Part shown: in pieces, positions 6,354 to 63,916 of the stretch
Layout of the letters: each line of letters begins with the position of its first letter
Numbering within the stretch: the stretch's first letter is position 1
From: Eledone cirrhosa
Lineage: Eukaryota
Reading direction: 5' to 3'
Assembly (NCBI GenBank): GCA_964016885.1
Contig: OZ024740.1
Span: forward strand, 434,001 to 498,000
Length of the DNA: 64,000 bases
Translations under genes and position numbers: made by a program
The notes under the pieces: model-generated
Told to the model about the DNA's origin: nothing
The model's input: the letters and a program-made list of their open reading frames with translations, nothing else
The model's database searches: none

Positions 6354-7376
6354 TTGAAAACCCGATCTGAACAACAGATTCAAAATAAATTAAAGCAAAT
6401 CGAAGCTGCTTTTAAATTAATCAATAAACACTTGGATAAACTACGGTGTGTTTTTTCTTCGGATGCTGTCCAGCAGCAGCAACAGCAGCAACAACAACAA
6501 CAGCAGCAACAACGGCAACAGCTACAACAACAACAACAGCAACATCAACAACGACAACAACAACAACAGTGTGAACCACTCCTTGATTCATCAACAATGG
6601 CCGATCTACTAATTGAAACTATTGACCTCCCAGTAGCCACTGTCTTACAGCAGGAAACGCCTCTTCCTTTCTCTGCCCCAGCAGTCCAATCATCACCACT
6701 GCCAACATCTCCTCTGCCTACTACTACTACTACTGCTGCTACTATTACTACTACATCTTTGCCTACTGCTATCTCAAGAAATTTACCTTCTAATACCAGT
6801 ACAAGAACTCTCCATCCCACAGCCCACACAGGTCGTCAAAACCTACTCAAACTATCATCTACACCTCTCACAACACACACACACACATACATACCCACTC
6901 GAAACCCTATCATTTGCCGCTACTCTCTACGCTATAGAATATGTACGGATAGTGGCTGCAAATTCACCCATTTACCTAGGACAAAACGGTCTATCCCCAC
7001 AAACAGCCACCACCATAATACATACTCTAATTTAACACCAACACAACCACCAATAACTCAAACAAGGAATCCACAAATCTGCCGCTTTTCCCTGCGAGAC
7101 AGATTGTGTTTACACCGGGATTGTCCCTTTACCCATCTCCCGGGGACCCGTCGGACAAATGAAAATAAAAATAAAAATAAAAGCAAAAACAAAAACCATA
7201 ACGTACATAAAAATAACCACTACCACAGTCACCAACAGTCTCCTAAACAGGAAACTTCTTCCTCTTTTTTAGCTATAATGAATCTGGCAAAAGAACTGGA
7301 AAAAAACATTCGAGCTATCACCCAGCACCACCCTCCACTATCACCCCACTGCACAAACTCCCATTGCTGCCATTAA
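6354..7376 (+). CDS. CR1 ORF1-like protein: coiled-coil N-terminus, poly-Q, Ser/Thr/Pro linker, two CCCH zinc fingers
   Basis: 340-aa ORF immediately upstream of the APE domain, with two C-x8-C-x4-C-x3-H motifs. True start uncertain (the track start is TTG). Confidence 0.7.
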   Translation: MKTRSEQQIQNKLKQIEAAFKLINKHLDKLRCVFSSDAVQQQQQQQQQQQQQQRQQLQQQQQQHQQRQQQQQCEPLLDSSTMADLLIETIDLPVATVLQQETPLPFSAPAVQSSPLPTSPLPTTTTTAATITTTSLPTAISRNLPSNTSTRTLHPTAHTGRQNLLKLSSTPLTTHTHTYIPTRNPIICRYSLRYRICTDSGCKFTHLPRTKRSIPTNSHHHNTYSNLTPTQPPITQTRNPQICRFSLRDRLCLHRDCPFTHLPGTRRTNENKNKNKSKNKNHNVHKNNHYHSHQQSPKQETSSSFLAIMNLAKELEKNIRAITQHHPPLSPHCTNSHCCH

Positions 7377-10300
7377 CAAACAAACAAATTAACAACACAC
7401 CAAAGCAATTAAAACCATCCACTCTCGCCTCAACATTTTTGCTTAACGCCCAAGGCATCAGCCCTTCCACCAATACTCAAAAATGGAAGATCAAATTCCT
7501 GGAGGACTGGGTTGATGTCCATCCAAACCACATCCCTTTCTTCGTCCTCACTGAAACCCATCTCAGCAACCTCCACTTGGAAGCCGAGGTGAAAGTGAAA
7601 AATTTCAAAGCCATCCGTGCTGATCGCGCTGGCAGAAGAAAGGGTGGGACTGCCATTTATGTCCATAATTCTTTCTCAACAGAGGCTATGAACATATTTA
7701 CTAATGGATACTGCGAAGCAGTCACTGTATTCAGTCAAACCAACAACCTAATAGTAATTGGGCTCTATAGGCCACCCCAAACGCCTCTACCATGCTTCAA
7801 GGAATGCCTCAACAGCATAAAGTGTTTCATCCAAGAGTGTCACCCTGACAACATCTTAATGATGGGGGACTTCAACCTCCCGGAGTTGTCTGGTCCACAA
7901 ACAGCCTGCCACCAGGTTCTTCTGCCTCAACCTCTGACAGGGAAGCAGTGGAATCGCTTCTTGACTTCATGGGTGATTTCTTCCTGTCCCAACTGGTGCT
8001 CGAACCAACGAGGTGCCACAAAAACGTCCTAGACTTAATTTTCAGCAATCACACTGACACTATCCACAATATTGCAGTGGAGAAAACTCTACTCTCTGAT
8101 CATGACATGGTTCTCTGTGATCTGAGATTCCACCGTCCAATATACAAACCCAATGTCATCTCTCCTGTCCATCCGTTTGATGCTATGGATTTCCACAGTG
8201 CAAACTGGGAAGCGATCAGTCATGATTTGCACATGTCGACTGGTCCTTCACGCACACTCACACACCCACTAACATCAAAAAGTCCTGGCAGACATTTATG
8301 GACACTGTTACAAACATATGTGCAAAACACACCCCATTAAGAACTATAAACAAATCTAAGAGCAGAATCCCTAGAAATAGAAAAACGCTCATCAGGAAAA
8401 TTAAGAGAACTAACAAAAAAATCAACAAGCTGAAATACTGTCAGCAGCAACACATCAACTTGACTGCCATTTCATCACTAGAGATTAAAAAACATAAACC
8501 TCCAAAACAATATGATGTCTATCATCAACAATCAGAGAAGAGCTGAAGAGGCCTGGGCCATTGAGAAGATCAAACTCAATCCCAAAGTGTTCTTTTCATT
8601 TGCAAAAAAACACAAAATCACTGGCTCTACTGTTGGCCCTCTAATTGATGAAAATGGTACTCTTCAAGACAATGCTAAAACCATGGGTGAGATACTGCAG
8701 AAACAATACTGCTCTGTTTTCAGCAATCCTGATATGGCCGATCTGGGCTGTATCGGCGATGTTACTCCCCATTACACCTTATCGAACGTAACGTTTGGCG
8801 CCCCTGATGTCTTAGCGGCAATAAAGGAAATCAAGCATAATTCAGCAGTAGGTCCCGATAGGTTCCCTGCTTGTGTCTTGAAGGCGTGTCAACACCAACT
8901 TGCATCTCCTCTTGCCAATCTGTGGTGGAACTCACTGGATGCTGGATATGTGCCAGAAAACCTTCTATCCAGTCTGTTGTCCCAGTTTTCAAAAAAGGAA
9001 ACAAATCCCTTGCCGTGAATTACCGTCCAATCTCACTCACCTCTCATATCATTAAGGTATTTGAGAGAGTGGTGAGATCGCGAATGACTCACTTCCTTGA
9101 GAGTAACAATATGCTGAACTCAAACCAGCATGGATTCCGTAATGGAAGGGATTGCCTGACGCAGCTACTGCATCACTTTGATGACATTTTGAGAGCCTTG
9201 GGAGAGGGTTCCAACACTGATGTTATCTACCTTAATTTCAGCAAGACCTTTGACAGGGTTGATCACAACATTCTACTGAGAAAGCTGTCCAATATTGGTG
9301 TCACTGGAAAGCTGCTGCAGTGGATCAAGAGCTTCCTGTCAAACAGAACCCAACATGTTGTAGTCGAAGGAGTCAAATCCAGCCCAGCCAAAGTCAGTAG
9401 TGGGGTCCCACAAGGCACTGTGTTGGGCCCACTTCTCTTTATCATCTGTATTAATGACATCACTGACATCATCAAACACAGCAACATTAGAATTTTCGCT
9501 GATGATTCCAAGCTCCAAATGGTCATCAATGGTGTGGATGACCGGACAAGCCTTCAGTCAGACCTACTGGCTGTTACTCAATGGGCGGAAAAGAACAACA
9601 TGTTACTAAACGAAGACAAATTCGAACTGATCCACTTTGGAAAAGCGGATGCTCTGAAACTCCCGTACTCCCTGCCCTCTGGTGAAACTCTCATAGCATC
9701 TAACAACATCAGAGACTTGGGAGTAACCGTGGACAGCAACATAAGCTGGGCCACGCATATAAGCAGCAAAGTTGACATGGCCCGCAGAATGTGTTCCTGG
9801 ATCCTCAGAACCTTCCAGTCGAGAGATTCCCACACCATTATCCTTCTCTTCTCCACTTTTGCCTGACCACACCTTGAATACTGTTGTCCACTGTGGTCTC
9901 CCCACACGAAACAAAGTATCATGAAACTTGAAGCTCCCCAAAGGGCAATCACGAAAAAGATAGATGGCATGTCAGACCTTGACTACTGGGGTCGACTAGA
10001 AAAGCTGAAACTTTACTCACTCCAACGTAGCCGTGAGCGTTATATTATCTGCATGATGTGGAAAATGTCTCATCAGCACTGCCCAAATGATGTTGGCATC
10101 ACCTTCAAAATACACCCAAGGCTTGGGCCCCGTGCTATCTGTCCCAAACAAAAATCTAAATCGCAACTCATAACAACAATACGGCACAATTATTTCACCT
10201 CAATTGGTCCTGCTCTCTTCAACATCACACCAGGACATGTCAAAACAGAAACTGACCACACAAAACTCAAGAAGTCTTTGGACAAATTCCTCCAAGTAAT

Positions 10301-10467: not shown

Positions 10468-12628
10468 TATCATCATCATCATCATCATCAACGTTTAACG
10501 TCCGTGTTCCACGCTTGCATGGGTTTGGACGGGGGTTTTCCCACTTGAGGCAAGAGTGATTATCTTGCTCGCATAGGACTATCTGGCGGGTTTTCTACAG
10601 CTGACACCTACACGATCTCATTTGTTTCGGCCTGGATGTTGTGGCACCAACATAACTTTACATTGAAAGGGGCGGTGTGGATGGGGTGGGACGGGGGTGT
10701 ATTTTGTTAGAGATGCCTACTGACTGTAGTAGGTTTTACTTTGTATTTAGGTAAGGCGGGTCTTCTCTATTACTGAGTACCGCCAAAGGTCTCGGTCCAG
10801 TGACATTGTCTTGGTGAGGTGTAAGTGTGTGAGGTCGGAGTTTATCAGCTCGTCCCAGGTTTTTCTGGGTCTGCCTATTCCGTGGCTACCGTCTATCTTT
10901 ATTGCCCTGCACTTTGTTATACAGCTATCGTCCTTCATGCGCATCACGTGACCATACCAACGTAGCCTTCTCTCTAGTAAACATCTGATCCCTCTTATTT
11001 CTAATTTTTTCCTTAGTTCGTTTATGCTTTGTCGTTCACGTATATTACTATTACACATCCAGCGGAGCATGCAAGCTTCGTTTCTCTCTAGTCTGCGTAT
11101 ATCCTCTGCACACAATGCCCAGGTCTCACTGCCATGCAACATTGCTGTTCGTATGCAGGCATCGTACAACCTGCCTTTCATTTTTAGGGAGAACCTTTTA
11201 GCGGCTAATAGTGGTATAAGCTCTCTGAACTTTTTCCACCCAGTTCTGACTCTAGCTACTGTACTTTCAGAGCACCCTCCCCCACTGCTGATTTTGTCAC
11301 CCAGGTAACGGAAGCTGTCCACTATTTCTATAGAACCCTCTGCGCAGTTGAAAGAGCTAGTATTTTGTGGGCACTTGCTGCTACTTATTGCCCCAGAACA
11401 CCGGCCACATGTAAAATCTATGTTCTTAGTTAGCTTACCTGTGATCCCACTACATCTTTTATGCACCCAAACTTTGCATTTGGGACACTAAATGGAATTT
11501 CTACCTACGCCTTTCCTACACTCCGCGCATGGCCACTTCCCGGAGGGGACCACTGCCTTATTTTCTTTCTTACAAACTAGAACTTTAGTCTTAGCCAGGT
11601 TAATTTTAAGGCGTTTTGATTCTAGGCCGTGCTTCCATGTTTGGAATTTCTTCTCTAGCTCGGCCATTGATTCAGCTATGAGCGTTAGATCATCTGCGTA
11701 TAGGAGTTCCCATGGGCAGCCGGTCTTGAACTCCACTGTTATAGCCTGAAGGGCAATAATAAATAGTAGGGGGCTGAGAACAGAGCCCTGATGAACACCA
11801 ACTTTTACACTAAACTGTTCACTATATTCCTTGTTAATTCTAACCTTGCTGACTGTTTCTTTATACATGGCTTGTATAGCTCTCACAAGCCATTCATCAA
11901 CACCTAGTTTTCTAAGAGCCCACCAGATAATGGAACGGGGGACTCTGTCGAAGGCCTTCTCCAAGTCGACGAAAGCTAAGTATAGGGGTTTACTTTTAGC
12001 TAGGTACTTCTCCTGTAGTTGTCGTACAATGAAAAGAGCGTCTGTGGTACTTTTGCCTGACACAAACCCGAACTACATTTCATCTAGACCAATTCGCTCT
12101 CTGATTAGTTGCGCTATTACTTTTTCCGTGACCTTCATGACCTGGTCGATTAATTTAATGCCTCTATAGTTACTCCTATCTAGGGCGACTCCTTTACCCT
12201 TATAACAGTTAACGATAATGCTGCTACGCCAGTCCTTCGGAACAACCCCATTCTGTATGACTTGGTTGACTATCCGGGTGACCATGGTGTGTCCCACCGT
12301 ACCAGATGCCTTCAGCATCTCGGCAACTATTTTCGAAGGCCCAGCCGCCTTACCCGTCTTCATATCTTTGATTGCCTTACTTATTATACTACCCTCGACT
12401 AACACTGCTGGTCCCTCTATTGGGTCGATGTGGGGGAGACTGTCTTTCTCCCATTTATTCTCCTCATTTAGTAGCCTTTCATAGTGACACTTCCAAGCTA
12501 CCTTCTTATCGGCGTCGGTGATGGCAAGTACACCGTCATCGTTAAGTACACACTTCTCCCCGACAATATCACTGTTTGCCTTGACACATTGCCTAGCAAT
12601 CCTGAACACCTCACGTTTTTGGTCCTCT
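10468..12628 (-). mobile_element. RTE-clade LINE, 5'-truncated, same family as 1-1821
   Basis: ORFs 12073-12628, 11488-12063 and 10747-11466 give KGKG..NYRGIKL, FVDLEKAFD, YADD and GRPRKTW. (CAT)n tail at 10468-10489 and an internal deletion in the 3'UTR. Confidence 0.95.
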
Positions 12629-30757: not shown

Positions 30758-32960
30758 TCATCATCATCATCACCGTTTTGCATCCGTTCTTCCACGCTAG
30801 CATGGGTTAGACGGGTTGTCCTGTTGTGGGCAGTGTCTGGTCGGCTGACCATGCCTTGCTTATACAGGAACTGATTTGGCTTGATTTCTACAGCTGGATG
30901 CCCTTCCTAACACCAACCTCATTTACAGTGAGTGCTGGGTGCTTTTTCGTGGCGCCTACACGTCCACTTTACAGTGTGGGCTGGGTGCTTTTTTGCCGTG
31001 GCACCTCCACGACCACCTTGCAGTGGGAGAGTGTGGGGGCATATTGTCTATATGCTTCAGCTTGTACCCATGGGAGGTCGGGTACTCTGTATTACTGCGT
31101 GACGCCAGGTCACGGTCGTGTGTCATCGCCTTTGAGAGGTGTAATTGGGTAAGGTCGGCTTTTATCACCTCATCCCAGGTCTTCTTGGGTCTCCCCACTC
31201 CGCGGTTTCCATTGACTTCTAGTGCTCTGCACCTTTTTATGCAGCTGTCATCCTTCATACGCATCACATGTCCATACCAACGCAACCGCCTCTCCTGCAC
31301 ACACCATTTGATTCCTCTTATGCTCAGTCTCTCTCTCAATTCATTTATGCTTTGTCGTTTGCGTATATTACAATTACACATCCATCAGAGCATGCAGGCT
31401 TCGTTTCTCTCTAATCTATGTAAGTCTTCCACCTTCAGCGCCCAGGTCTCACTACCATGTAACATTGCTGTTTGGATACATGCATCATACAGTCTGCCTT
31501 TCATTTTGAGGGAGAAGCCTTTTGCAGCTAGCAGTGTCAGTAGTTCCCTGAACTTCTTCCATCCCGTTCTTACCCTAGTTATTGTACTTTCTGAACACCC
31601 ACCTCCGCCTCTAATTCGGTCACCTAGGTAGCAGAAGCTGTCTACTGTCTCTACAGAGCCCTCCCAGAGATTGGTGGAACTTGTTTCCTGTGGCTGTTTG
31701 CTGCTTGCTACCCCAGCACAGCTGCTGCAAGTGAAGCCTACATTCTTAATTAAGCTTCCTGAGATCCCGCTACATCTCTTGTGTACCCATTGTTTGCATT
31801 TGGGGCAGAGAATGGAGTTCCTACCTACACCTTTCCTACATACTGAGCAAGGCCATTTCCCTGAGGGGATCTGGGTTCTGTTTTCTCGTCTACTTACAAG
31901 GACCTTAGTCTTTGTCATGTTGACTTTCAGACCCTTTCTTTCTAGTTCCTGCTTCCAAGTTTGAATTTCTTCTCTAGTTCTACCATAGATTCAGCTATAA
32001 GTGCGAGGTCATCAGCATACAGGAGTTCCCATGGGCATCCGGTCTTAAACTCTTCCGTTATTGCCTGCAGGACTATGATGAACAGGAGAGGGCTAAGAAC
32101 AGAGCCCTGGTGGACCCTGTACGCTAAATTCCTCGCTATACTCATTGCTAATCCTAACTTTGCTGACTGCTCCCCTATACATGGCTTGTACAGCTTTCAC
32201 AAGCCATTCATCTACTACTAGTTTTCTAAGAGCCCACCAGATTACAGCACGTGGAACTCTGTCAAAGGCTTTCTCGAGATCGACGAATGCCAGGTAGAGT
32301 GGCTTACTTTTAGCTAGGTACTTTTCCTGTAACTGCCTCACAAGGAAGAGGGCATCAGTGGTGCCTCTTCCTGGTACAAACCCAAATTGCATCTCATCTA
32401 GCTTCACCCGGTCCCTAATCAACTGTGCTATAACTCTTTCTGTTACTTTTATGACCTTGTCCATCAGCTTTATACCTCTATAGTTTCCTCTATCGAGTGC
32501 ATCACCTTTACCTTTGTAGCAGTTGACAACGATGCTACTGCACCAATCTTTTGGTATGACACCTTCTTGTATTACCTGGTTAACAATACGTGTGGTTATA
32601 GTGTGACCTACAGACCCAGATGCCTTCAGCATCTCGGCAGCTATACCCGATGGACCAGTTGCCTTCCCCAACTTTATATCTTTGATTGCCTTACTTACTA
32701 CGCTGCTGCTGACTTGTACTGCTGGCCACTCTATAGGGTCTCTTCTTCCCATGCATTCTCCTCATAGCTGTTCGATGCATCTTTCTTCTCAGCACTTGTG
32801 AGGGCAAGCTCACCTTTATCATTCCGGATACACTTCTCTCCAATGACATTACAATTCTCTCTGCCTCGCAATCTTGAACACCTCCTGTTTCTGGTCCTCA
32901 CGTTGCAAAACATGTTTGAATTTTCTATCCTCTGCTTCCCTCCTAGCTAAGTATACTTGT
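30758..32960 (-). mobile_element. RTE-clade LINE, 5'-truncated, sister subfamily of the 1-1821 and 10468-12628 copies
   Basis: ORFs 32093-32752, 31942-32145, 31385-31918 and 30956-31381 carry RT motifs and the same Cys/His finger; (CAT)n tail at 30758. Confidence 0.95.
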
Positions 32961-34600: not shown

Positions 34601-35449
34601 GTAAATCTACACCAGTGGTTCCCTAATTTATTTTATTATATAACCTTCATTGACCCTACCATTCTCTAATTTTAATAAGCTATTAAATGAAACAAAAAAG
34701 GAATTTATTCGGCTAAAGATATTATAGATGTTTATTAAATGTTTTTATGTATTTAGGGTTTCTTGGAGGAACCCTACTTCGGGTTTTACAAAATTAGAAC
34801 CCCACAGACCGAGCTAACAGAGTCCTAAGCAGGAAAAACTGTATTTCTCTGCCTAGCTAGACATAGAGAAGAAAGGACTAGGTTTAAGTCATTCGTAAAA
34901 AAAAAAAATATCACCACCCTTTCCCCTCTTACCATCCACCTCCCCTATATCCTTATCTTCCTCCCGTCTCTCTTTCTCTTAATTTTTTACTGATGGTCAT
35001 ATATGATTATATAAAATCTCACTTGTTCACTGAACAAACTAGTTCAAAACTCTTGTAGTTTATAGGATAACTGGTGTAGCTGCTTTAGGTAAACAGACGT
35101 GGGTGGTTTACAAGAAAGAACATAAAAAATAAAAACTGAAGTTATATTGATTTTTGTGGCTGCATTAGGAGGCTTTTGTCGAGATAAAGATGAATTATAC
35201 CATTACATTCTGTTGTTTCCACCCTCCATTGTATGACTGACTCTCTACTATGTAGCCTCTTCTACATATATGTGTATGTATGAATATATACACACACAGA
35301 GCTAGTAAAGGACGTGTGAATAGATAGGTAAAGATATCCAAGGTATAGAGCAACCCAAGTCCGTAGGACAAGTTTGAATAAGATTATTAAGGCCAGGTAT
35401 GGCGCTGTTGTAGTAACTACCCTTATATATACATATATATATATAGTAT

Positions 35450-35550
35450 ATCATCATCATCATCGTTTAACGTCCATCTTCCACACTAGCATGGGTCTGG
35501 ACATAACCCATGCTAGCGTGGAAAATGGATGTTAAACGCAGATGATGATA
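35450..35550. repeat. Small fold-back made of two RTE 3' ends in inverted orientation
   Basis: catcgtttaacgtccatcttccacactagcatgggt / acccatgctagcgtggaaaatggatgttaaacg. Confidence 0.8.
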
Positions 35551-39070: not shown

Positions 39071-39811
39071 GTAACCTTCTCAGATGATCTAGTTGCATTG
39101 AGGTAATGTACAGTTTCTACGTTGAAACTAAGAAATATTAGCAGCAAATTTGATCTTGTGGCCTTTACTCAATCATACTATCTCTACTATAGAATCACCA
39201 GTGACTGTTTTGAAATGTTTGGCATACAAAATACACCTCTCTTTCTCTGAATGGTTCTTAAGTCATGTACTCAAACTCTCTAATATATGTTTTTTTATCA
39301 ACATATTCTGACAATATGATGGGCACAGCATAAAATAGCTTTGGATAGAATATATCGTAATATTTGTTCTCGCGTTCAAATTTCACCATGGTCAGCTTTG
39401 TATTTCATCCTTTTGAGGTTGATATTATAAAGTACTAGTCGAGAGCAGGGAATTGTCAGACTGCCAGACAAAATGCCTTGCTGTATCCAGCACTTTGCAG
39501 TCTCAGCTCAAATTCCATCTAGGGTCTCAAGTCCCACCAATGGCCAGGGATCTTAGAACTACAACTGATATGAAATCAGCAATGTGTGGAGGATGATTGT
39601 GGCTGTGTGCTGCTGTAGTTGAACAATGATGGTTACACCTGTCTAATGTTGGTAACAATATACCCCTTGTATTTTTGTTGTGTATCATCTTATCTGGCAA
39701 ATTTGATATTCCCAGATCTGGTCTAAACTATTCTCCAAAGCCTTCTTTGATATATATATATAAACTAATTACATTTTATACTTGTCAATTAATATCAGAG
39801 AAGGACTTTGT

Positions 39812-41431
39812 ACCTGGTAGATCACTGGAGTAGTTAACTGTAAGAACACCTAGAAAACCTGGTAGATGACTGGAGTAGTTAACTGTAAGAACACCTAGAA
39901 AACCTGGTAGATGACTGGAGTAGTTAACTGTAAGAACACCTAGAAAACCTGGTAGATGACTGGAGTAGTTAACTGTAAGAACACCTAGAAAACCTGGTAG
40001 ATGACTGGAGTAGTTAACTGTAAGAACACCTAGAAAACCTGGTAGATGACTGGAGTAGTTAACTGTAAGAACACCTAGAAAACCTGGTAGATCACTGGAG
40101 TAGTTAACTGTAAGAACACCTAGAAAACCTGGTAGATGACTGGAGTAGTTAACTGTAAGAACACCTAGAAAACCTGGTAGATGACTGGAGTAGTTAACTG
40201 TAAGAACACCTAGAAAACCTGGTAGATCACTGGAGTAGTTAACTGTAAGAACACCTAGAAAACCTGGTAGATGACTGGAGTAGTTAACTGTAAGAACACC
40301 TAGAAAACCTGGTAGATGACTGGAGTAGTTAACTGTAAGAACACCTAGAAAACCTGGTAGATGACTGGAGTAGTTAACTGTAAGAACACCTAGAAAACCT
40401 GGTAGATGACTGGAGTAGTTAACTGTAAGAACACCTACAAAACCTGGTAGATCACTGGAGTAGTTAACTGTAAGAACACCTAGAAAACCTGGTAGATGAC
40501 TGGAGTAGTTAACTGTAAGAACACCTAGAAAACCTGGTAGATGACTGGAGTAGTTAACTGTAAGAACACCTAGAAAACCTGGTAGATGACTGGAGTAGTT
40601 AACTGTAAGAACACCTAGAAAACCTGGTAGATCACTGGAGTAGTTAACTGTAAGAACACCTAGAAAACCTGGTAGATGACTGGAGTAGTTAACTGTAAGA
40701 ACACCTAGAAAACCTGGTAGATGACTGGAGTAGTTAACTGTAAGAACACCTAGAAAACCTGGTAGATCACTGGAGTAGTTAACTGTAAGAACACCTAGAA
40801 AACCTGGTAGATGACTGGAGTAGTTAACTGTAAGAACACCTAGAAAACCTGGTAGATGACTGGAGTAGTTAACTGTAAGAACACCTAGAAAACCTGGTAG
40901 ATGACTGGAGTAGTTAACTGTAAGAACACCTAGAAAACCTGGTAGATGACTGGAGTAGTTAACTGTAAGAACACCTACAAAACCTGGTAGATCACTGGAG
41001 TAGTTAACTGTAAGAACACCTAGAAAACCTGGTAGATGACTGGAGTAGTTAACTGTAAGAACACCTAGAAAACCTGGTAGATGACTGGAGTAGTTAACTG
41101 TAAGAACACCTACAAAACCTGGTAGATCACTGGAGTAGTTAACTGTAAGAACACCTAGAAAACCTGGTAGATCACTGGAGTAGTTAACTGTAAGAACACC
41201 TACAAAACCTGGTAGATCACTGGAGTAGTTAACTGTAAGAACACCTAGAAAACCTGGTAGATGACTGGAGTAGTTAACTGTAAGAACACCTAGAAAACCT
41301 GGTAGATGACTGGAGTAGTTAACTGTAAGAACACCTAGAAAACCTGGTAGATGACTGGAGTAGTTAACTGTAAGAACACCTAGAAAACCTGGTAGATCAC
41401 TGGAGTAGTTAACTGTAAGAACACCTACAAA
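39812..41431. repeat. 45-bp minisatellite, about 36 highly homogeneous copies
   Basis: Unit acctggtagatgactggagtagttaactgtaagaacacctagaaa. Only two positions vary (gatga/gatca and ctaga/ctaca). Confidence 0.97.
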
Positions 41432-41461
41432 ATAAATATTTCTAATCCAAGAGCACTTCAT

Positions 41462-42124
41462 ACAAATAGTGAGTTTTTGTTACCTAGGTGACAATTAGTA
41501 ATAACAGTGAATGCTTTGAAAGCCTGGTAGCCAGAATAAGAATGTGGTAGAAAAGGTTTATAGAGCTATTATGCCTGCTGCCAACAAAGACACCCCCCCC
41601 CCCCCCCCCACACACACACACCCTTTCTCCCCCCCCCCCCCTCTCTCCCCCTCTCTCTCTTCCTCGCTCTCTCTGTAAGACAGATTATATGATGCTTGTG
41701 CATAAAATACAGTTTCAAGGTTCCGTAATATGGGCATTGTATGGAAAATTCCGTGATATGGCATGGCTGGAAAGAAATGAATTGGGCACTCTCTGTTATA
41801 TAATGTTATTGTTTTTGAACAGCACAGATAAGTTGAGGGAAAAATAGACTGGGTATAAGAGGAATCAGATGTAAACAAGACTGCACTGGTATGGACATGT
41901 GATTTGTGTGGATGATGGCAGTTTAGTAAAGAAGTGGCAGGATTTCCACATGGAAAGAAGACCAAGGAAGACATGATCAAAAGTTTTAAAATCTGATCTC
42001 AGGATGCTGAAGCTCATGAAAGAGATGGCAAATAATCATGGTACTTTGTTGAAGAACAACTGTCCAAACCATGTAATAATGAGGGGGGGGGGGAAACGGA
42101 TGTAAAAATGATGATGATGGTGAT
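41462..42124 (+). mobile_element. Highly decayed RTE 3' fragment
   Basis: ttttgttacctaggtgac (FCYLGD), ttatatgatgcttgt (LYDAC), tggtatggacatgtg (WYGHV), agaccaaggaagacatg; (ATG)n tail. Confidence 0.75.
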
Positions 42125-48329: not shown

Positions 48330-49453
48330 TATTGCCATAGAGATCCTTATTTGTTGGGTGTTCCTTCCAAGATACGTTTAAAGCAGCACGGAGCATACGT
48401 GTGTATGCCCCGTCTAGCCTTTTCTCCAGTTTTGATGTTAGCGTCCAAGTGATAGAACCATAAACAAGCACAGATTCCACAGCAGCTCTGAAGAAATTCC
48501 TTTTCAGTTTGGCCGGTAGGTTTGATTTCCATGTTTTATCCATTGCATTCAATGCTCCCCAGGCTTTTCCCAGTCTGATGTTAACATCATGTTCTTTGGA
48601 GGCGATATAGCTACCCAGGAATTTGAAGTCATCAATTTGCTTGATTATATCGCCGTTTAGACTTCGCATACCAACTGAGGAGTATTGGTTCAGGCAAATA
48701 TATTCTGTTTTGCCTGCGTTGACATAGTCCGATTTCCTTTGCAACTGATTCGATGCTGTGAAGTAGTGATGTTGCATCCTTAAGGTAGTCAGCGAGGACC
48801 GCTAAATCATCCGCATAGTCAGCATCGGGGATTTTCTGAGCTGCATGGCGTCTACACTTTCGCTTTGTGAGAGTGAAACCAAGCTCTGAGTTTTCATCCA
48901 GGGCTTTTCTTAATACATAGTCGAGGCAGATGATAAAAATGTATGGTGCAAGAGTATCCCCCTGGAGTACTCCTGCAATGATGTCAAAGAAGTTTGTATC
49001 TCCATCAGGTGAGCGCACCAATGCGCGGGTGTTTTTATATAACATCATGATGGCATTTACTGTTTCCTTTGGCAAGCCATAGGCTAGAAGTATCTCTCTC
49101 ATCCTCCCACGATGGATGGAATCGAATGCTTTTGAAAAGTCAATAAATAGGAGAGTTGCTGGGAGGTTTTTGGCTTTTACGCCTTCCAAGATACGCCGAA
49201 TAGTAAGTATTTGCCCTGATGTTGATCTGCAACTTGAGGACGATACTGGAGCAAGCTCGACCTTCTACGACACGTTTCCTCCATCCATCTCTGTCTCTCA
49301 TAGCGTTTGCCAGTTCTTCCGCAGTGCATCCAGTATCGTCCTCAAGTTGCAGATCAACATCAGGGCAAATACTTACTATTCGGCGTATCTTGGAAGGCGT
49401 AAAAGCCAAAAACCTCCCAGCAACTCTCCTATTTATTGACTTTTCAAAAGCAT
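48330..49453 (-). mobile_element. RTE-clade LINE RT fragment with a rearranged, fold-back 5' junction
   Basis: [39 protein letters not shown]. Inverted arms at 49126-49250 and 49329-49453. Confidence 0.92.
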
Positions 49454-58002: not shown

Positions 58003-58660
58003 CATTTATCCTGGTATTTAAATAGCCGATCTTCTCAAGGGGTAATTCCATATATGGTCAAAGTGATTGTCAAAAATCAGTAGTAATTCTGTGGTTGCAA
58101 ATTAGTAGGGGAGATGGTGGCTAAACCTGCCAGTAGGAGAAAGAGGGGAGGGGGTGGAGTAGACCCAATCAAGCGTTGGTAGTGCCAGCTACAGCTGGGC
58201 ATGAGGTCAAAGAAGATACAGGGGAGGGGGAGGGGGAGGAAGTCGGAACGGTAGGTAGAACAATGGGGGGTAGAAATAGGAAAGAAAAAATACTGAGAGT
58301 GAAGAAAAGCAAATAAGTGTAAAGAAAAAATTAAATTCTACGACCTAGGTGTCAGGCTATTGTAGGCGAGAATAAAATAAAGAAAGAAAGAAAGAAGTAA
58401 ATAAATAAATAAATAAATAAATAAGGAAATAAGTAAAAGAACTAGGTGGGACGAATTAGGCAAGGACCCTTTTAAGAGGTATAAGTACGTAAATGATACG
58501 GTGACTGGTCAACAAAAGGGGCCAAAATACTAAAGAGACTACCACGAAATAAACAATAAAGGTTTCCATCCCGGGCCAGCAACGACCCAGTGCAGCAAAG
58601 TGAACTTGTACGACATAATAATTCTGAGTCCCGAGAAAAATATATACTAATGCTAACTCT

Positions 58661-58926
58661 AAAAGATCTAAAACAAGCTACATGAGAGTTCGTACGAAAT
58701 AAAGGTAGAATACGGAGAAATAAATTCAGAATCCACCCCGCCCAGAAGAAAAGCGAAGCAAGAAATACTGAAACGAAAAAAATAAGGCATAAGTGCCACT
58801 AAGAAATATAGAGTTTCAGTATTTCTTGCTTCGCTTTTCTTCTGGGCGGGGTGGATTCTGAATTTATTTCTCCGTATTCTACCTTTATTTCGTACGAACT
58901 CTCATGTAGCTTGTTTTAGATCTTTT
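58661..58926. repeat. Inverted repeat with 114-bp arms and a 38-nt spacer
   Basis: 58661-58774 is the reverse complement of 58813-58926; no mismatch seen by eye. Confidence 0.93.
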
Positions 58927-59139: not shown

Positions 59140-60224
59140 ATTTTACTCTTTTACTCTTTTACCTGTTTCAGCCATCCGGCTGAGGCCATGCTGGGGCACC
59201 GCCCTTGTTGCTACACATTTTATCTCCAGCCTGTATAGGTTAGCCACTGGTGTAAGAGGGAGTTTGTTGCTGCTGCCCTTAGGTTTCCCTCGTGTCTTGC
59301 TGTGGGCTCATCCGGGATCCTGGATAACAAGGTGTCGAGATGTTTCTTAAAGACATCCACCTCCACGTCCTGCAAGTCTCTCAACTGCATGTTGTTTTCT
59401 TCCGCCCATTTGTATATGGCATCCAGATCCTGCTGTAAAAGGGCATCGTCAGCCGGGTTTTTGATTGCCTATGCTACCTTAGTGTCATCAGCATAGTTAG
59501 TGAGGGATGTTGTTGCATGCACCACAGAGGGCATGTCCGAGAGAGCCACCAAAAACAGTAGTGGTCCCAGGACTGTCCCCTGGGGCACCCCACTTGTTAT
59601 CGGTGTTTCCCTCGAGAGGGCCCCATTTGCTGCGACTGCCTGGCTTCTGTCCCTTAGGAAGCCATGCAGCCACTCACCTACTTTTCCAGTTATGCCGAGT
59701 CCGTGTAGTTTGTGACATATCATTCCGTGGTCGACCTTGTCAAAGGCCTTCACAAAGTCAAGATATATCACGTCCACATGTGAGCTGTCTAGTAGTTGTC
59801 TCAGTACCCAGTCGTAGTGATGTAGCAGCTGTGTAAGGCAGCTTCTTCCTGGGCGGAAGCCATGTTGCGTGCTAGTCAGGCGGTCATTTTCCTCGAGGAA
59901 AGTGATTAGTTTCTTTCTGACGACTCGCTCCATGACCTTACTGATATGCGATGTCAGGGAGACTGGCCTATAGTTCTTGGCCTCCGCTCTACTACCTCCT
60001 TTATGGATAGGGCATATTGTGCCTCCTTTCAGCTCGCTGGGTAGTACACCGCTAGCCAAGGAGCTTCTGAAGAGCATCTTCAGTGGAGTGGCTAAGGCCC
60101 GCTTACATATTTTTAAGAGAACTGCTGGGAATCCATCAGGTCCAGCAGCCGAGTCTGTTCTAATTTCATCAATGGCGTACACCACATCCTCCTCCGTTAT
60201 GTCTATGTGGTTGATGGTTGCCAT
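59140..60224 (-). mobile_element. CR1-like LINE (second family): RT fragment, internally deleted, with 3' tail
   Basis: AGPDG, NYRPVSLTS, QHGFR, YLDFVKAFD, GVPQGTVLGP and YADD, then the C-terminal IPDEP..TNSLL and a (GTAAAAGA)n tail. Confidence 0.92.
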
Positions 60225-60243
60225 ATATTTATATATATATATT

Positions 60244-60305: not shown

Positions 60306-60339
<34 letters not shown>

Positions 60340-61772
60340 TATATAGGACAAACTAAACTCACACTCAGAAACAGAATGACAGTTCATCGCCAACAATTAC
60401 GAGATCCAACCACGAGACAGATACCACTAAGTGCACATCTAGACATTTGCACAAGTAATAAGACACCCAAATTCCAAGTCTTCCCATTTTACCTTTGCGC
60501 TAACAATACAACAGAACAAATGCGAATAAATAAGGAACATATGTTTATTCAAAAATATAGACCAACATTAAATAAGGTTTAATATACATTATGTCAACAC
60601 CACAATATGACATACACACACACACATAACACCTTCTACTTTAGAAAATAAAAACCCGAACTAAATAAACCTTAACATACGTTTGCACTGGCAATACAAC
60701 AGCAAACACGAAAAAGTAAGGAAAATATGTTCATTCAAAAATATTCCTACTGAAGGAATCACTTTCCTACACACACACATACACACACACACACAATATA
60801 TATATATATATATTGTCTTCATCTTAACATGCTAACCATACTCCCACACACATAACACCCATACACACATAACAACCCCCACACCTACAACTCTCTCCTC
60901 ATTTCTACTAATAGAACCACTTTCCTACACACACATATATATACACACACACAAAATATATATTCTCTCCATCTTAACATACTCGCACACACACACATAA
61001 CACCCATATACACACACACACAACTCCCTCCCCCATCACTACTAATAGAATCATCTTCCAATACACACATACACACACACAAGCACACAAATAAACATAC
61101 ATATCTTCACTTCAATAGAAAATCTGAACTCTGACACCCCAGCGAACTAACCATATTCACTGAACCAGAACAATTCTCCCAATCCCTTTTCTCTTGACCA
61201 CTATCTCTCCATTGTCATAACATTCACTATAAAGACTACAGAATAGTTTTCCAAATAAGGGCGCAAAAATGTAATGAAAACTTGTTCACGTGACAGCCAA
61301 ATTTCATTTATAACCAACCAAAAAAAAGCCTTCGTGAGCCTCCTTTTTTCAAGTAAAAAGAAATTCAAACGCTCATATATGAAAAAACAACCTGTGACAA
61401 CCCCCCCCCCCCCCCCCCCTCTCTTATTTGAAGAACTATTGTAACGCGAACTGGCGCGAAATTTATTATAATTATTGACAAACCAATCAAATTACTTCTC
61501 GAAAAACCTGGCATTTCGAGCCACTTTTTCCATATAAAACAAGTAACATTCAGAGACCAACCAGATGTGAGAAAAACCACAGACCCTCCATCTCAACTCA
61601 CCTTTTGAAAAGCAGAAGAACTGCGAAACCGGTAAAGGAACCAAATAAATATATATATTTTAAAAAAAAATAAGACTCCAGTTGCATTTTCGATTTCATC
61701 TCTTTTTCTTTATACTTTCACTCGTGTAGAACACCTCGGTTATTTTTCATTTTGTAAAAAAAACCTCACTTT
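60340..61772 (+). mobile_element. Penelope-like element 3' part: GIY-YIG endonuclease C-half plus 3' terminal repeat region
   Basis: YIGQT..TLRNRMTVHR...LSAH...KEHMFIQKYRPTLN* (60340-60582); hammerhead motif about 1 kb downstream. Confidence 0.85.
61601..61638 (+). ncRNA. Minimal type-I hammerhead with a U3/A8 variant core
   Basis: CCTT-TTGAAAA-GCAG(AAGAA)CTGC-GAAA-CCGG-TA-AAGG. Stems I and II are perfect and stem III is the palindrome ACCGGT. Confidence 0.72.
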
Positions 61773-61783
61773 CTAATATAAAT

Positions 61784-62191: not shown

Positions 62192-62798
62192 TGGTATGGA
62201 CACGTGATGCGCATGAAAGTCGATAGCTGTATAACAAAGTGCAGGGCAATAAAGATAGACGGTAGTCACGGAATAGGCAGACCTAGAAAAACCTGGGACG
62301 AGCTGATAAACTCCGACATCACACACTTACACCTCTCCAAGACAATGTCACTGGACCGAGACCTTTGGCGGTACTCAGTAACAGAGAAGACCCGCCTTAC
62401 CTAAATATATAGTAAAACCTACTCCAGCCAGTAGGCATCTCTAACAAATACACCCCGTCCCACCACCCCCACCCGATCCACACCACCCCGTTCTATGTAA
62501 AGTTATGTTGGTGCCACGCCATCGAGGCCGAAACAAATGAGATCGTGTAGGTGTCACGACAAAAAAACACACAGTCCACGCTGTAATGTGGCCGTGTAGG
62601 CAACACGGTAAAAACCTCCCAGACCCACACTGTAAATGTGGTTGGTGTTAGGAAGGGCATCCAACTGTAGAAAACCTGCCAGACAGTCCTATGCGAGCAA
62701 GACAATCACTCTTGCCTCAAGTGGGACTACCCCCGTCCAAACCCATGCAAGCGTGGAACACGGACGTTAAACGCTGATGATGATGATGATGATGATGA
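62192..62798 (+). mobile_element. RTE 3' fragment (ORF C-terminus, 3'UTR, tail)
   Basis: [20 protein letters not shown]; (GAT)n tail. Confidence 0.93.
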
Positions 62799-62801
62799 TA
62801 T

Positions 62802-62832
<31 letters not shown>

Positions 62833-62833
62833 A

Positions 62834-62888
<55 letters not shown>

Positions 62889-62889
62889 A

Positions 62890-62948
<59 letters not shown>

Positions 62949-62949
62949 A

Positions 62950-63018
<69 letters not shown>

Positions 63019-63019
63019 A

Positions 63020-63054
<35 letters not shown>

Positions 63055-63160
63055 AATATATATATATATCATCATTTCATTTTCATTTCATTTTACGTCC
63101 ACTTTTCCCTGCTTGCAAGGGTGGGACGGGAACTGATTATATATATATATATATATAAAT

Positions 63161-63249
<89 letters not shown>

Positions 63250-63278
63250 AATATATATATATAAATATAAATATATAT

Positions 63279-63916
63279 ATCATCATCATCATCAACGTTT
63301 AACGTCCGTGTTCCACGCTTGCATGGGTTTGGACGGGGGTAGTCCCACTTGAGGCAAGAGTGATTGTCTTGCTCGCATAGGACTGTCTGGCAGGTTTTCT
63401 ACAGTTGGATGCCCTTCCTAACACCAACCACATTTACAGTGTGGGTCTGGGAGGTTTTTACCGTGTTGCCTACACGGCCACATTACAGCGTGGACTGTGT
63501 GTTTTTTTGTCGTGACACCTACACGATCTCATTTGTTTCGGCCTCGATGGCGCGGCACCAACATAACTTTACATGGATCGGGTGGGGGTGGTGGTGGTGG
63601 GACGGGGTGTATTTTGTTAGAGATGCCTACTGGCTGGAGTAGGTTTTACTATATATTTAGGTAAGGCGGGTCTTCTCTGTTACTGAGTACCGCCAAAGGT
63701 CTCGGTCCAGTGACATTGTCTTGGAGAGGTGTAAGTGTGTGATGTCGGAGTTTATCAGCTCGTCCCAGGTTTTTCTAGGTCTGCCTATTCCGTGACTACC
63801 GTCTATCTTTATTGCCCTGCACTTTGTTATACAGCTATCGACTTTCATGCGCATCACGTGTCCATACCAACGTAGCCTTCTCTCGAGTAAACAACATCTG
63901 ATCCCTCTTATCTCTA
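63279..63916 (-). mobile_element. RTE 3' fragment, near-identical inverted copy of 62192-62798
   Basis: The same 66-aa translation appears in the ORF track (62204+ and 63657-), and the UTR is the same. Confidence 0.93.

What the first reader, a model, noticed from the sequence alone, without database searches (positions are those of the whole stretch)
61601..61638. Hammerhead with a U3:A8 double-variant core downstream of a Penelope GIY-YIG ORF
Seen: all stems are perfect, but the core reads UUGAAAA instead of CUGANGA, meaning C3U together with G8A. Established: positions 3 and 8 form a tertiary Watson-Crick pair, and compensatory double substitutions can retain activity. Inference: this may be a family-wide natural covariant that standard CUGANGA searches miss, rather than decay. 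Two independent transitions in a dead copy remain possible.
Basis: partly seen in the sequence, partly recalled or inferred. Interest (0 to 1): 0.72.

Follow-up and report, generated by a model that had tools for sequence, protein, structure and literature searches.

The report
Penelope hammerhead with known U3:A8 core
This is a hammerhead-shaped RNA motif at the end of a very abundant jumping gene; its odd U-A core pair is the family norm and was already published for such elements, and it likely cuts its own RNA only rarely.

Summary
Window 61601-61638 is a type I minimal hammerhead in the terminal repeat of a Penelope-like retrotransposon. U3:A8 is the family state, not decay: 12,968 of 13,054 genomic matches are U3A8, 59 C3A8, 27 U3G8 and none C3G8. 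All 20 elements fetched for a long RT-endonuclease frame carry it. It is not new: natural U3-A8 was reported in 2011, and in Penelope hammerheads in 2014 with the same seven core letters. This scan also noted it before on other DNA.

(1) Most insertions start 5' of the cut site (74 of 84), so uncut RNA was likely the usual template. 3 of 84 start exactly at the predicted cut, and a targeted sample shows a small excess there (p about 0.003). This is weak indirect evidence of rare cutting.
(2) U3 can pair with A17 at the cut site, a predicted trap like the known C3-G17 one.
(3) A sister family (11,228 matches) shares U3:A8 but has fixed A13C.

Stem III forms only in a dimer. Cleavage itself is untested.

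The parts
60339..61780 (+). 5'-truncated copy of a high-copy two-ORF Penelope-like retrotransposon, set between (TA)n-type microsatellites
   Evidence: 93% identity over 1,413 nt to the full-length genomic copy L057, and 97% over 61562-61780; flanks
60340..60582 (+). Last 80 codons plus stop of the RT-GIY-YIG frame (ORF2)
   Evidence: PF01541 E = 2e-4; 150 scored genomic matches at 98-100% among 10,603 candidates; the full frame of L057 has RVT_1 and GIY-YIG
61453..61491 (+). Promoter-like words upstream of the inferred start (E2F-like and CCAAT-like; labels recalled, function inferred)
   Evidence: Sequence; 9-10-nt exact matches to these or neighbouring words in the sister family
61562..61573 (+). 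Main 5' end of genomic copies; inferred transcription start, about 70 nt upstream of the cut site
   Evidence: 47 of 84 insertions have their 5'-most end at L057 2010-2034, mostly 2018-2024; loose contig ends at 2018-2022 in DNA runs
61601..61638 (+). Type I minimal hammerhead: stem I 61601-04/61635-38, stem II 61612-15/61621-24
   Evidence: 10,256 exact copies of 61602-61638
61605..61611 (+). Core UUGAAAA with U3 (61605) and A8 (61610)
   Evidence: U3A8 in 12,968 of 13,054 matches; U3 108 of 108 and A8 108 of 108 aligned arms
61628..61633 (+). Palindrome ACCGGU, predicted to form a 6-bp stem III between two copies
   Evidence: Double-hammerhead fold -21.1 kcal/mol; monomer stem III not formed; same palindrome in C3G8 relatives L121, L128, L130
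61634..61635 (+). Predicted cut site after GUA (A17 = 61634); A17 can pair with U3
   Evidence: 3 of 84 insertions start exactly here; excess at this position in the targeted sample; P(U3-A17) = 0.61
61713..61780 (+). 'Tail' between the two fixed 3' ends of the family (L057 2169 and 2237), inferred reverse-transcription start sites; the window copy ends at the far one
   Evidence: 110 of 114 arms end at one of the two sites; 30 of 30 tight head-to-head pairs have one of each

Best explanation
It is a type I minimal hammerhead in the terminal repeat (pseudo-LTR) of a high-copy Penelope-like retrotransposon, whose U3:A8 core is the fixed family state and likely keeps a weak, dimer-dependent ability to cut the element's own RNA. 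Shown: the motif, its fixation, its place about 170 nt upstream of ORF1 in full elements, two fixed 3' ends, and the 5' ends of copies. Inferred: transcription starts near 61562 and the RNA carries the hammerhead in its leader. Two copies pair through ACCGGU to complete stem III, perhaps with help from the element's protein as shown for another Penelope element. U3 pairs with A8 in the active state but can instead pair with A17, which would hold most molecules inactive. Reverse transcription starts internally at two sites downstream of the motif and mostly copies uncut RNA back to its start; a few percent or less of insertions likely came from RNA cut after A17.
For: Fixation. Covariation across related elements in other hosts: of 28 distinct sense-strand motifs in 122 loci, 17 C3G8, 10 U3A8, 1 U3G8, 0 C3A8; 0 hits in 5 shuffles. 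An RT tree of 19 rows needs 4 switches of the pair, at least 2 forced by starred branches. Between the two sister families the 66 nt around the motif match at 74%, against 52-54% in the flanks (shuffles 45-49%) and 65% in ORF2 DNA, with a G-C to U-A swap in stem II. Cut-site footprint: 3 of 84 insertions start at the cut, against 7 over the other 80 positions of 2035-2115 (Poisson p about 1e-4). In the targeted sample the best spike among 9 positions is the cut site (34 single arms, weight 0.33, p = 0.003; 55 arms with short pairs, p = 0.009), and it is absent from 19 control arms with a long partner. Literature: U3-A8 in PLE hammerheads and low dimer activity (PMC4209133); protein-assisted PLE hammerhead, uncut RNA as main substrate, two RT start sites (PMC11167929); C3-G17 trap (PMC3884650).
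Against: No cleavage assay and no RNA reads were available. The cut-site signal is small; the two samples share two loci (L268 = L332, L318 = L335); one of the three exact starts carries a mismatch two bases in; TA flanks blur ends by 1-2 nt; p = 0.003 becomes about 0.03 if all 9 positions are counted; and a reverse-transcription stop at the palindrome duplex (ending 61633) could mimic it. About half of the copies (51 of 108) have only a 3-bp stem I. The sister family multiplied to over 11,000 copies with A13C, a change at a base reported to cost 10-100-fold (PMC4075628), so cutting may be dispensable. The conserved island extends about 90 nt upstream (72% over 123 nt), so some conservation may be promoter-related. 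A17 is rare in both core types in other hosts (0 of 11 U3A8, 1 of 17 C3G8), so avoidance of U3-A17 is not shown.
Confidence: 0.78

Rival explanations
1. The motif is a hammerhead by descent but no longer cuts in this lineage. It is kept for another role (RNA dimerisation through ACCGGU, protein binding, or overlap with the promoter and leader), and U3:A8 with A17 is an early step of catalytic loss that the sister family took further with A13C.
For: 74 of 84 insertions include the intact motif, so templates were mostly uncut. The sister family keeps the core region free of substitutions above 2% although it has C13, while its flanks vary at many sites; 97 of 100 listed matches have C13 (counted by eye). 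U3-A17 extends stem I by 1.4-1.7 kcal/mol. In vitro, hammerhead mutants did not block insertion of the anole element (PMC11167929).
Against: Excess of 5' ends exactly at the cut site. All catalytic bases are intact in this family, and the 3:8 pair stays Watson-Crick in 27 of 28 motifs of related elements.
Confidence: 0.19
2. Two independent transitions in a dead copy of a C3G8 family.
For: The window copy itself is 5'-truncated and cannot be autonomous.
Against: 0 of 13,054 matches are C3G8; the single revertants are 0.45% and 0.21%; all 20 long-frame elements have U3A8.
Confidence: 0.01
3. Chance resemblance to a hammerhead in A/T-rich repeat DNA.
For: No Rfam match; folding z only -0.94.
Against: Relatives with a homologous ORF1 or ORF2 carry canonical C3G8 hammerheads with the same ACCGGU palindrome between ORF2 and the next ORF1 (L121, L130, L128); compensatory change in stem II in the sister family; the descriptor finds 0 hits in shuffles.
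Confidence: 0.02

Closest known systems
U3-A8 minimal hammerheads of Cercyon Penelope-like elements, Schistosoma mansoni (Cervera and De la Pena 2014, PMC4209133; parts 1-2 of 4 read, supplement passages searched, file 1 not searchable)
   Same: Type I minimal motif in the pseudo-LTR; U3-A8 core; one listed example has the same UUGAAAA letters; short stem I; palindromic stem III region; mostly dispersed single or inverted copies.
   Different: Here there is no extra base between A9 and G10.1, stem II is 4 bp, the palindrome is 6 nt, and base 17 is A (the two U3-A8 rows seen in the supplement end in G and U by my reading of the garbled alignment). The family is very homogeneous (10,256 identical 37-mers) and the element has two ORFs.
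Natural U3-A8 core covariants (Perreault et al. 2011, PMC3088659; keyword passages and part 3 of 8 read)
   Same: Same swapped 3-8 pair, described as compensatory and earlier shown active in vitro (citing Przybilski and Hammann 2007, which was not held and not read).
   Different: That paper does not tie them to Penelope elements in the passages read; no U3 with A17 case seen there.
Hammerhead of the anole Poseidon element PAc (Frangieh et al. 2024, PMC11167929; parts 1-2 of 4 read)
   Same: Hammerhead in the pseudo-LTR near the ORF start; two internal RT start sites define a tail; uncut RNA is the main template; AT-rich targets.
   Different: PAc has C3-G8 and a single ORF; they found no reads at the cut site, whereas a few genomic copies here begin at it; the tail here is 68 nt against the 30-40 bp quoted there.
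G17 hammerheads and the C3-G17 trap (PMC3884650; abstract start and passages read)
   Same: A Watson-Crick pair between bases 3 and 17 stacked on stem I is proposed to trap an inactive form; U3-A17 is the direct analogue.
   Different: C3-G17 has three hydrogen bonds and was studied in tertiary-stabilised motifs, which stayed partly active; U3-A17 in a minimal motif is my inference and untested.
Neptune/Nematis-type EN+ Penelope-like elements (Craig et al. 2021, PMC8557442; passages read)
   Same: RT plus C-terminal GIY-YIG, CX2-5CxxC linker, pseudo-LTRs, tandem and inverted copies, microsatellite targets; the figure legend allows an optional ORF1 joined by a frameshift.
   Different: The exact clade was not placed against reference sequences.

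Membership tests
Type I hammerhead ribozyme | Core bases U4, G5, A6, A9, G12, A13, A14, A15.1, U16.1 and H17 in order | tested here: met
   All present at 61606-61634; each differs in at most 4 of 108 aligned arms
Type I hammerhead ribozyme | Watson-Crick pair between bases 3 and 8 | tested here: met
   U3:A8 in 12,968 of 13,054 matches; 27 of 28 motifs of related elements are C:G or U:A
Type I hammerhead ribozyme | Stems I and II with G10.1-C11.1; open end in stem I | tested here: met
   4 bp each in the minimum-energy fold; stem I is 3 bp in about half of the copies
Type I hammerhead ribozyme | Stem III | tested here: inconclusive
   Not formed in the monomer; 6 bp in a computed dimer, as described for PLE motifs
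Type I hammerhead ribozyme | Site-specific self-cleavage after H17 | not testable with these tools
   Only indirect: small excess of genomic 5' ends at the site
Rfam hammerhead families | Match to an Rfam covariance model | tested here: not met
   No hammerhead family among 76 matches in the window or 5 matches in 61500-61750 at E <= 10
EN+ Penelope-like element | RT with C-terminal GIY-YIG endonuclease | tested here: met
   L057 ORF2: GIY-YIG E = 4e-6, RVT_1 E = 5e-6; 714 relatives at E <= 1e-30
EN+ Penelope-like element | Pseudo-LTRs with a hammerhead; tandem and inverted copies; optional tail | tested here: met
   Motif on both sides of the ORFs in L054, L055, L057, L060; two fixed 3' ends and 30 head-to-head pairs among 84 insertions
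EN+ Penelope-like element | Single ORF (canonical form) | tested here: not met
   ORF1 of about 409 aa overlaps ORF2 in the -1 frame; PMC8557442 Fig. 1 legend lists an optional frameshifted ORF1
Neptune/Nematis clades | CX2-5CxxC linker before the endonuclease | tested here: met
   CX4CxxC in ORF2 of L057; definition from PMC8557442
Neptune/Nematis clades | Placement in the clade on an RT tree with named references | not tested
   No named reference sequences were available; the trees hold unnamed relatives only

The most novel reading that the evidence does not exclude
This family carries a self-throttled hammerhead: the U3:A8 swap together with an A at the cut site creates a U3-A17 trap, so that only a small share of RNAs are cut. 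That share is written into the genome as insertions beginning exactly at the cut. This would be a genomic record of in vivo cutting by an autonomous Penelope element's hammerhead, with the A13C sister family as a natural near-null control for whether these elements need the ribozyme.
Probability: 0.3. Interest if true: 0.58.

Novelty: new member of a known kind. Interest (0 to 1): 0.36.

Why it matters
The U3:A8 pair itself is published, so the finding as posed is a well-supported new example. Its value is as a test system for an open question, whether Penelope-like elements need their hammerhead. One genome holds about 13,000 copies with an intact U3:A8 core and about 11,000 copies of a sister family with an added A13C change, and the copy ends record which RNAs were used as templates. 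It also shows that CUGANGA-only searches and Rfam miss a large part of the hammerheads here.

Tried and rejected
Rfam scans gave no hammerhead; miRNA hits are microsatellite or inverted-repeat artefacts and the MALAT1 hit (E = 4.4) is chance. Folding z-scores were uninformative. No RNA holder was listed among public runs, which says nothing about expression. Contigs of DNA runs were masked over the cut site of this family and too coarse to test ends in the sister family. The pattern wrongly demanded an extra base after A9; it was replaced (45,927 loose C3G8 matches, control 3,234; 42,205 loose U3A8 matches, control 8,349; includes other families and false hits). The first tree (21 rows) held a long-branch row and near-duplicates; the second dropped L220, L157, L193 and near-duplicates, added five rows labelled by eye, and left out relatives without a called motif. 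Avoidance of A17 by U3A8 motifs in other hosts was tested and not supported. Seven fold-back pairs joined at 2093/2097 fit cut templates but also plain microhomology, so I did not count them as support. Eleven regions chosen by the hammerhead itself (L321-L331) were removed from the end counts; 17-18 of 98 targeted matches were dropped as internal indels or duplications. Przybilski and Hammann 2007 and Lunse et al. 2017 were not held, so activity values for U3:A8 and for PLE dimers are second-hand; supplement file 1 of PMC4209133 could not be searched and may hold further U3-A8 examples. Searches for U3-A17 or A13C with hammerhead found nothing relevant, within a library that lacks most subscription papers. 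The deep-mutational-scanning search was unhelpful.

Full report
Observation. Stem I is 61601-61604 with 61635-61638; the core UUGAAAA is 61605-61611; stem II is 61612-61615 with 61621-61624; then GAAA, the palindrome ACCGGU (61628-61633) and A17 (61634). All invariant bases are present except that C3 is U and G8 is A. Stem III cannot close in one molecule but gives 6 bp between two copies (double hammerhead -21.1 kcal/mol). Folding energy alone is not significant (z = -0.94) and Rfam finds no hammerhead.

The element. The motif lies in a 5'-truncated copy (60339-61780) between TA-type microsatellites. Only the last 80 codons of the endonuclease remain. The protein search of the 3.0-Gb genome gave 10,603 candidates, with the 150 scored at 98-100% identity. 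I fetched 20 places with frames of 734-842 codons. [quoted passage not shown] It is therefore part of the pseudo-LTR of an EN+ Penelope-like element of Neptune/Nematis type by its linker (PMC8557442, passages); the exact clade was not tested.

Is U3:A8 the family state? Yes. There are 10,256 exact copies of 61602-61638 (control 0). With bases 3, 7 and 8 free and stem II fixed there are 13,054 matches. Of these 59 have C3, all listed with A8, and 27 have U3 with G8, leaving 12,968 U3A8 and no C3G8. All motifs in the 20 long-frame elements have U3A8, as do 108 of 108 aligned arms.

A sister family. Its ORF1 is about 46% and its ORF2 about 55% identical in protein; it gives 11,228 pattern matches. 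It shares U3:A8, the palindrome and A17, swaps one stem II pair from G-C to U-A, has a stem I of three U-A pairs, and reads C at base 13 in 97 of the 100 listed matches (my count). DNA contigs show no substitution above 2% across its core. The 66 nt around the motif match between the families at 74%, against 52-54% in the flanks and 65% in ORF2. So U3:A8 is likely older than their split.

Related elements in other hosts. Among 122 loci from metagenome and genome collections (the prokaryote labels are likely host contamination, my inference), a strict descriptor found 28 distinct sense-strand motifs: 17 C3G8, 10 U3A8, 1 U3G8, 0 C3A8, with none in five shuffles. These are not independent, since many come from one assembly. 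Close relatives L121, L130 and L128 have C3G8 with the same palindrome. On an RT tree of 19 rows the pair state changes 4 times, at least 2 forced by starred branches. The swap is thus recurrent in this group; its direction here (C3G8 to U3A8) is likely but unrooted.

Does it cut? I mapped copy ends against the real copy L057 (window = L057 + 59544 at the motif; the cut is 2090|2091). Arms were picked by an anchor downstream of the cut (16,942 matches; the first 100 listed were fetched). After removing duplicates and 11 regions chosen by the motif, 114 arms in 84 insertions remain. 110 of 114 arms end at one of two 3' sites 68 nt apart, and all 30 tight head-to-head pairs have one of each, as expected from two internal RT start sites (PMC11167929). 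By 5'-most end, 27 insertions run further upstream, 47 start at 2010-2034 (inferred transcription start), 3 start exactly at 2091, and 7 fall on the other 80 positions up to 2115. So 74 of 84 include the uncut motif. A targeted pattern for ends at 2089-2097 gave 375 matches; the first 100 listed gave 98 arms. Among 34 single arms, a model with a spike fits best at 2091 (weight 0.33, p = 0.003; next best 2090, p = 0.09); adding the longer arm of 21 short pairs gives p = 0.009; 19 control arms with a long partner show no spike. Caveats: two loci are shared between the samples, TA flanks blur the ends, and a polymerase stop at the palindrome duplex could mimic the signal. I read it as weak evidence that a few percent or less of templates were cut.

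Why so little cutting? Minimal PLE hammerheads are slow even as dimers (PMC4209133), and the anole one needs its protein. In addition, U3 can pair with A17, extending stem I (probability 0.61 in the monomer; 1.4-1.7 kcal/mol). This is the analogue of the C3-G17 trap behind the NUH rule (PMC3884650). It is my inference; two searches found no paper on U3-A17 or A13C hammerheads. A17 is rare in both core types elsewhere, so selection against it is not shown.

What is known. Natural U3-A8 was reported by Perreault 2011, and in Penelope-like elements by Cervera and De la Pena 2014, with about 1,300 hits in Schistosoma and one example with the same UUGAAAA core. Earlier notes of this scan describe U3:A8 motifs in other families of this genome and in other genomes; they are unchecked AI notes and did not supply evidence.

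Verdict. Interest 0.36, resting on the cut-site footprint, the predicted U3-A17 trap and the A13C sister family, which together make the need for the ribozyme testable.

Noticed in passing
L112:2903-2932 (- strand), L063:8202-8230, L082-L101: Sister Penelope-like family with 11,228 pattern matches: U3:A8 core plus a fixed A13C change and a weak all-U-A stem I, yet conserved across its subfamilies; possibly a non-cutting hammerhead.
   Followed up: partly
L057:3392-3398 (ORF1/ORF2 overlap): A U-UUU-UUA slippery heptamer at the -1 overlap of ORF1 and ORF2, intact in 18 of 18 elements that hold the downstream anchor, and also present in the sister family (L112) and in L121 from another host; likely a programmed -1 frameshift. 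The label is recalled.
   Followed up: partly
L057:2232-3461: ORF1 of about 409 aa with no Pfam family; homologues in L121, L127, L130, L196, L124.
   Followed up: partly
window 61600-61601: Two subfamilies differ here (56 versus about 50 of 108 arms); the window type has a 4-bp stem I and is the type in all 20 long-frame elements fetched (a sample biased towards it), the other has 3 bp.
   Followed up: partly
G000:C1:30409-30446, 35449-35475, 5338607-5338637, 6519946-6521556: At least four other U3:A8 hammerhead-like families in this genome, one in a 316-bp tandem array; two also have A17.
   Followed up: no
L173-L194: One assembly holds several related Penelope-like families side by side, some with C3G8 and some with U3A8.
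   Followed up: partly
L345, L388, L411, L418, L425 and others: Recurrent fold-back junction of two short arms at L057 2093/2097, just inside the cut site; either two cDNAs from cut RNA annealed or a microhomology hot spot.
   Followed up: partly
window 62192-63869: Large inverted repeat (about 87% identical arms) of another element right after the Penelope copy.
   Followed up: no
window 58718-58869 and 58550-58925: Near-perfect inverted repeat that gives false miRNA-family hits.
   Followed up: no
window 59469-60242 (-), 8862-9866 (+), 32093-32761 (-), 48632-49264 (-): RT fragments of non-LTR retrotransposons (RVT_1), with an APE-type endonuclease fragment at 7247-8032 and PHD-finger fragments near 10747-11487 and 31385-31990.
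   Followed up: no
window 39785-41479 (-): Open frame of 564 codons with no Pfam match at E <= 0.1.
   Followed up: no
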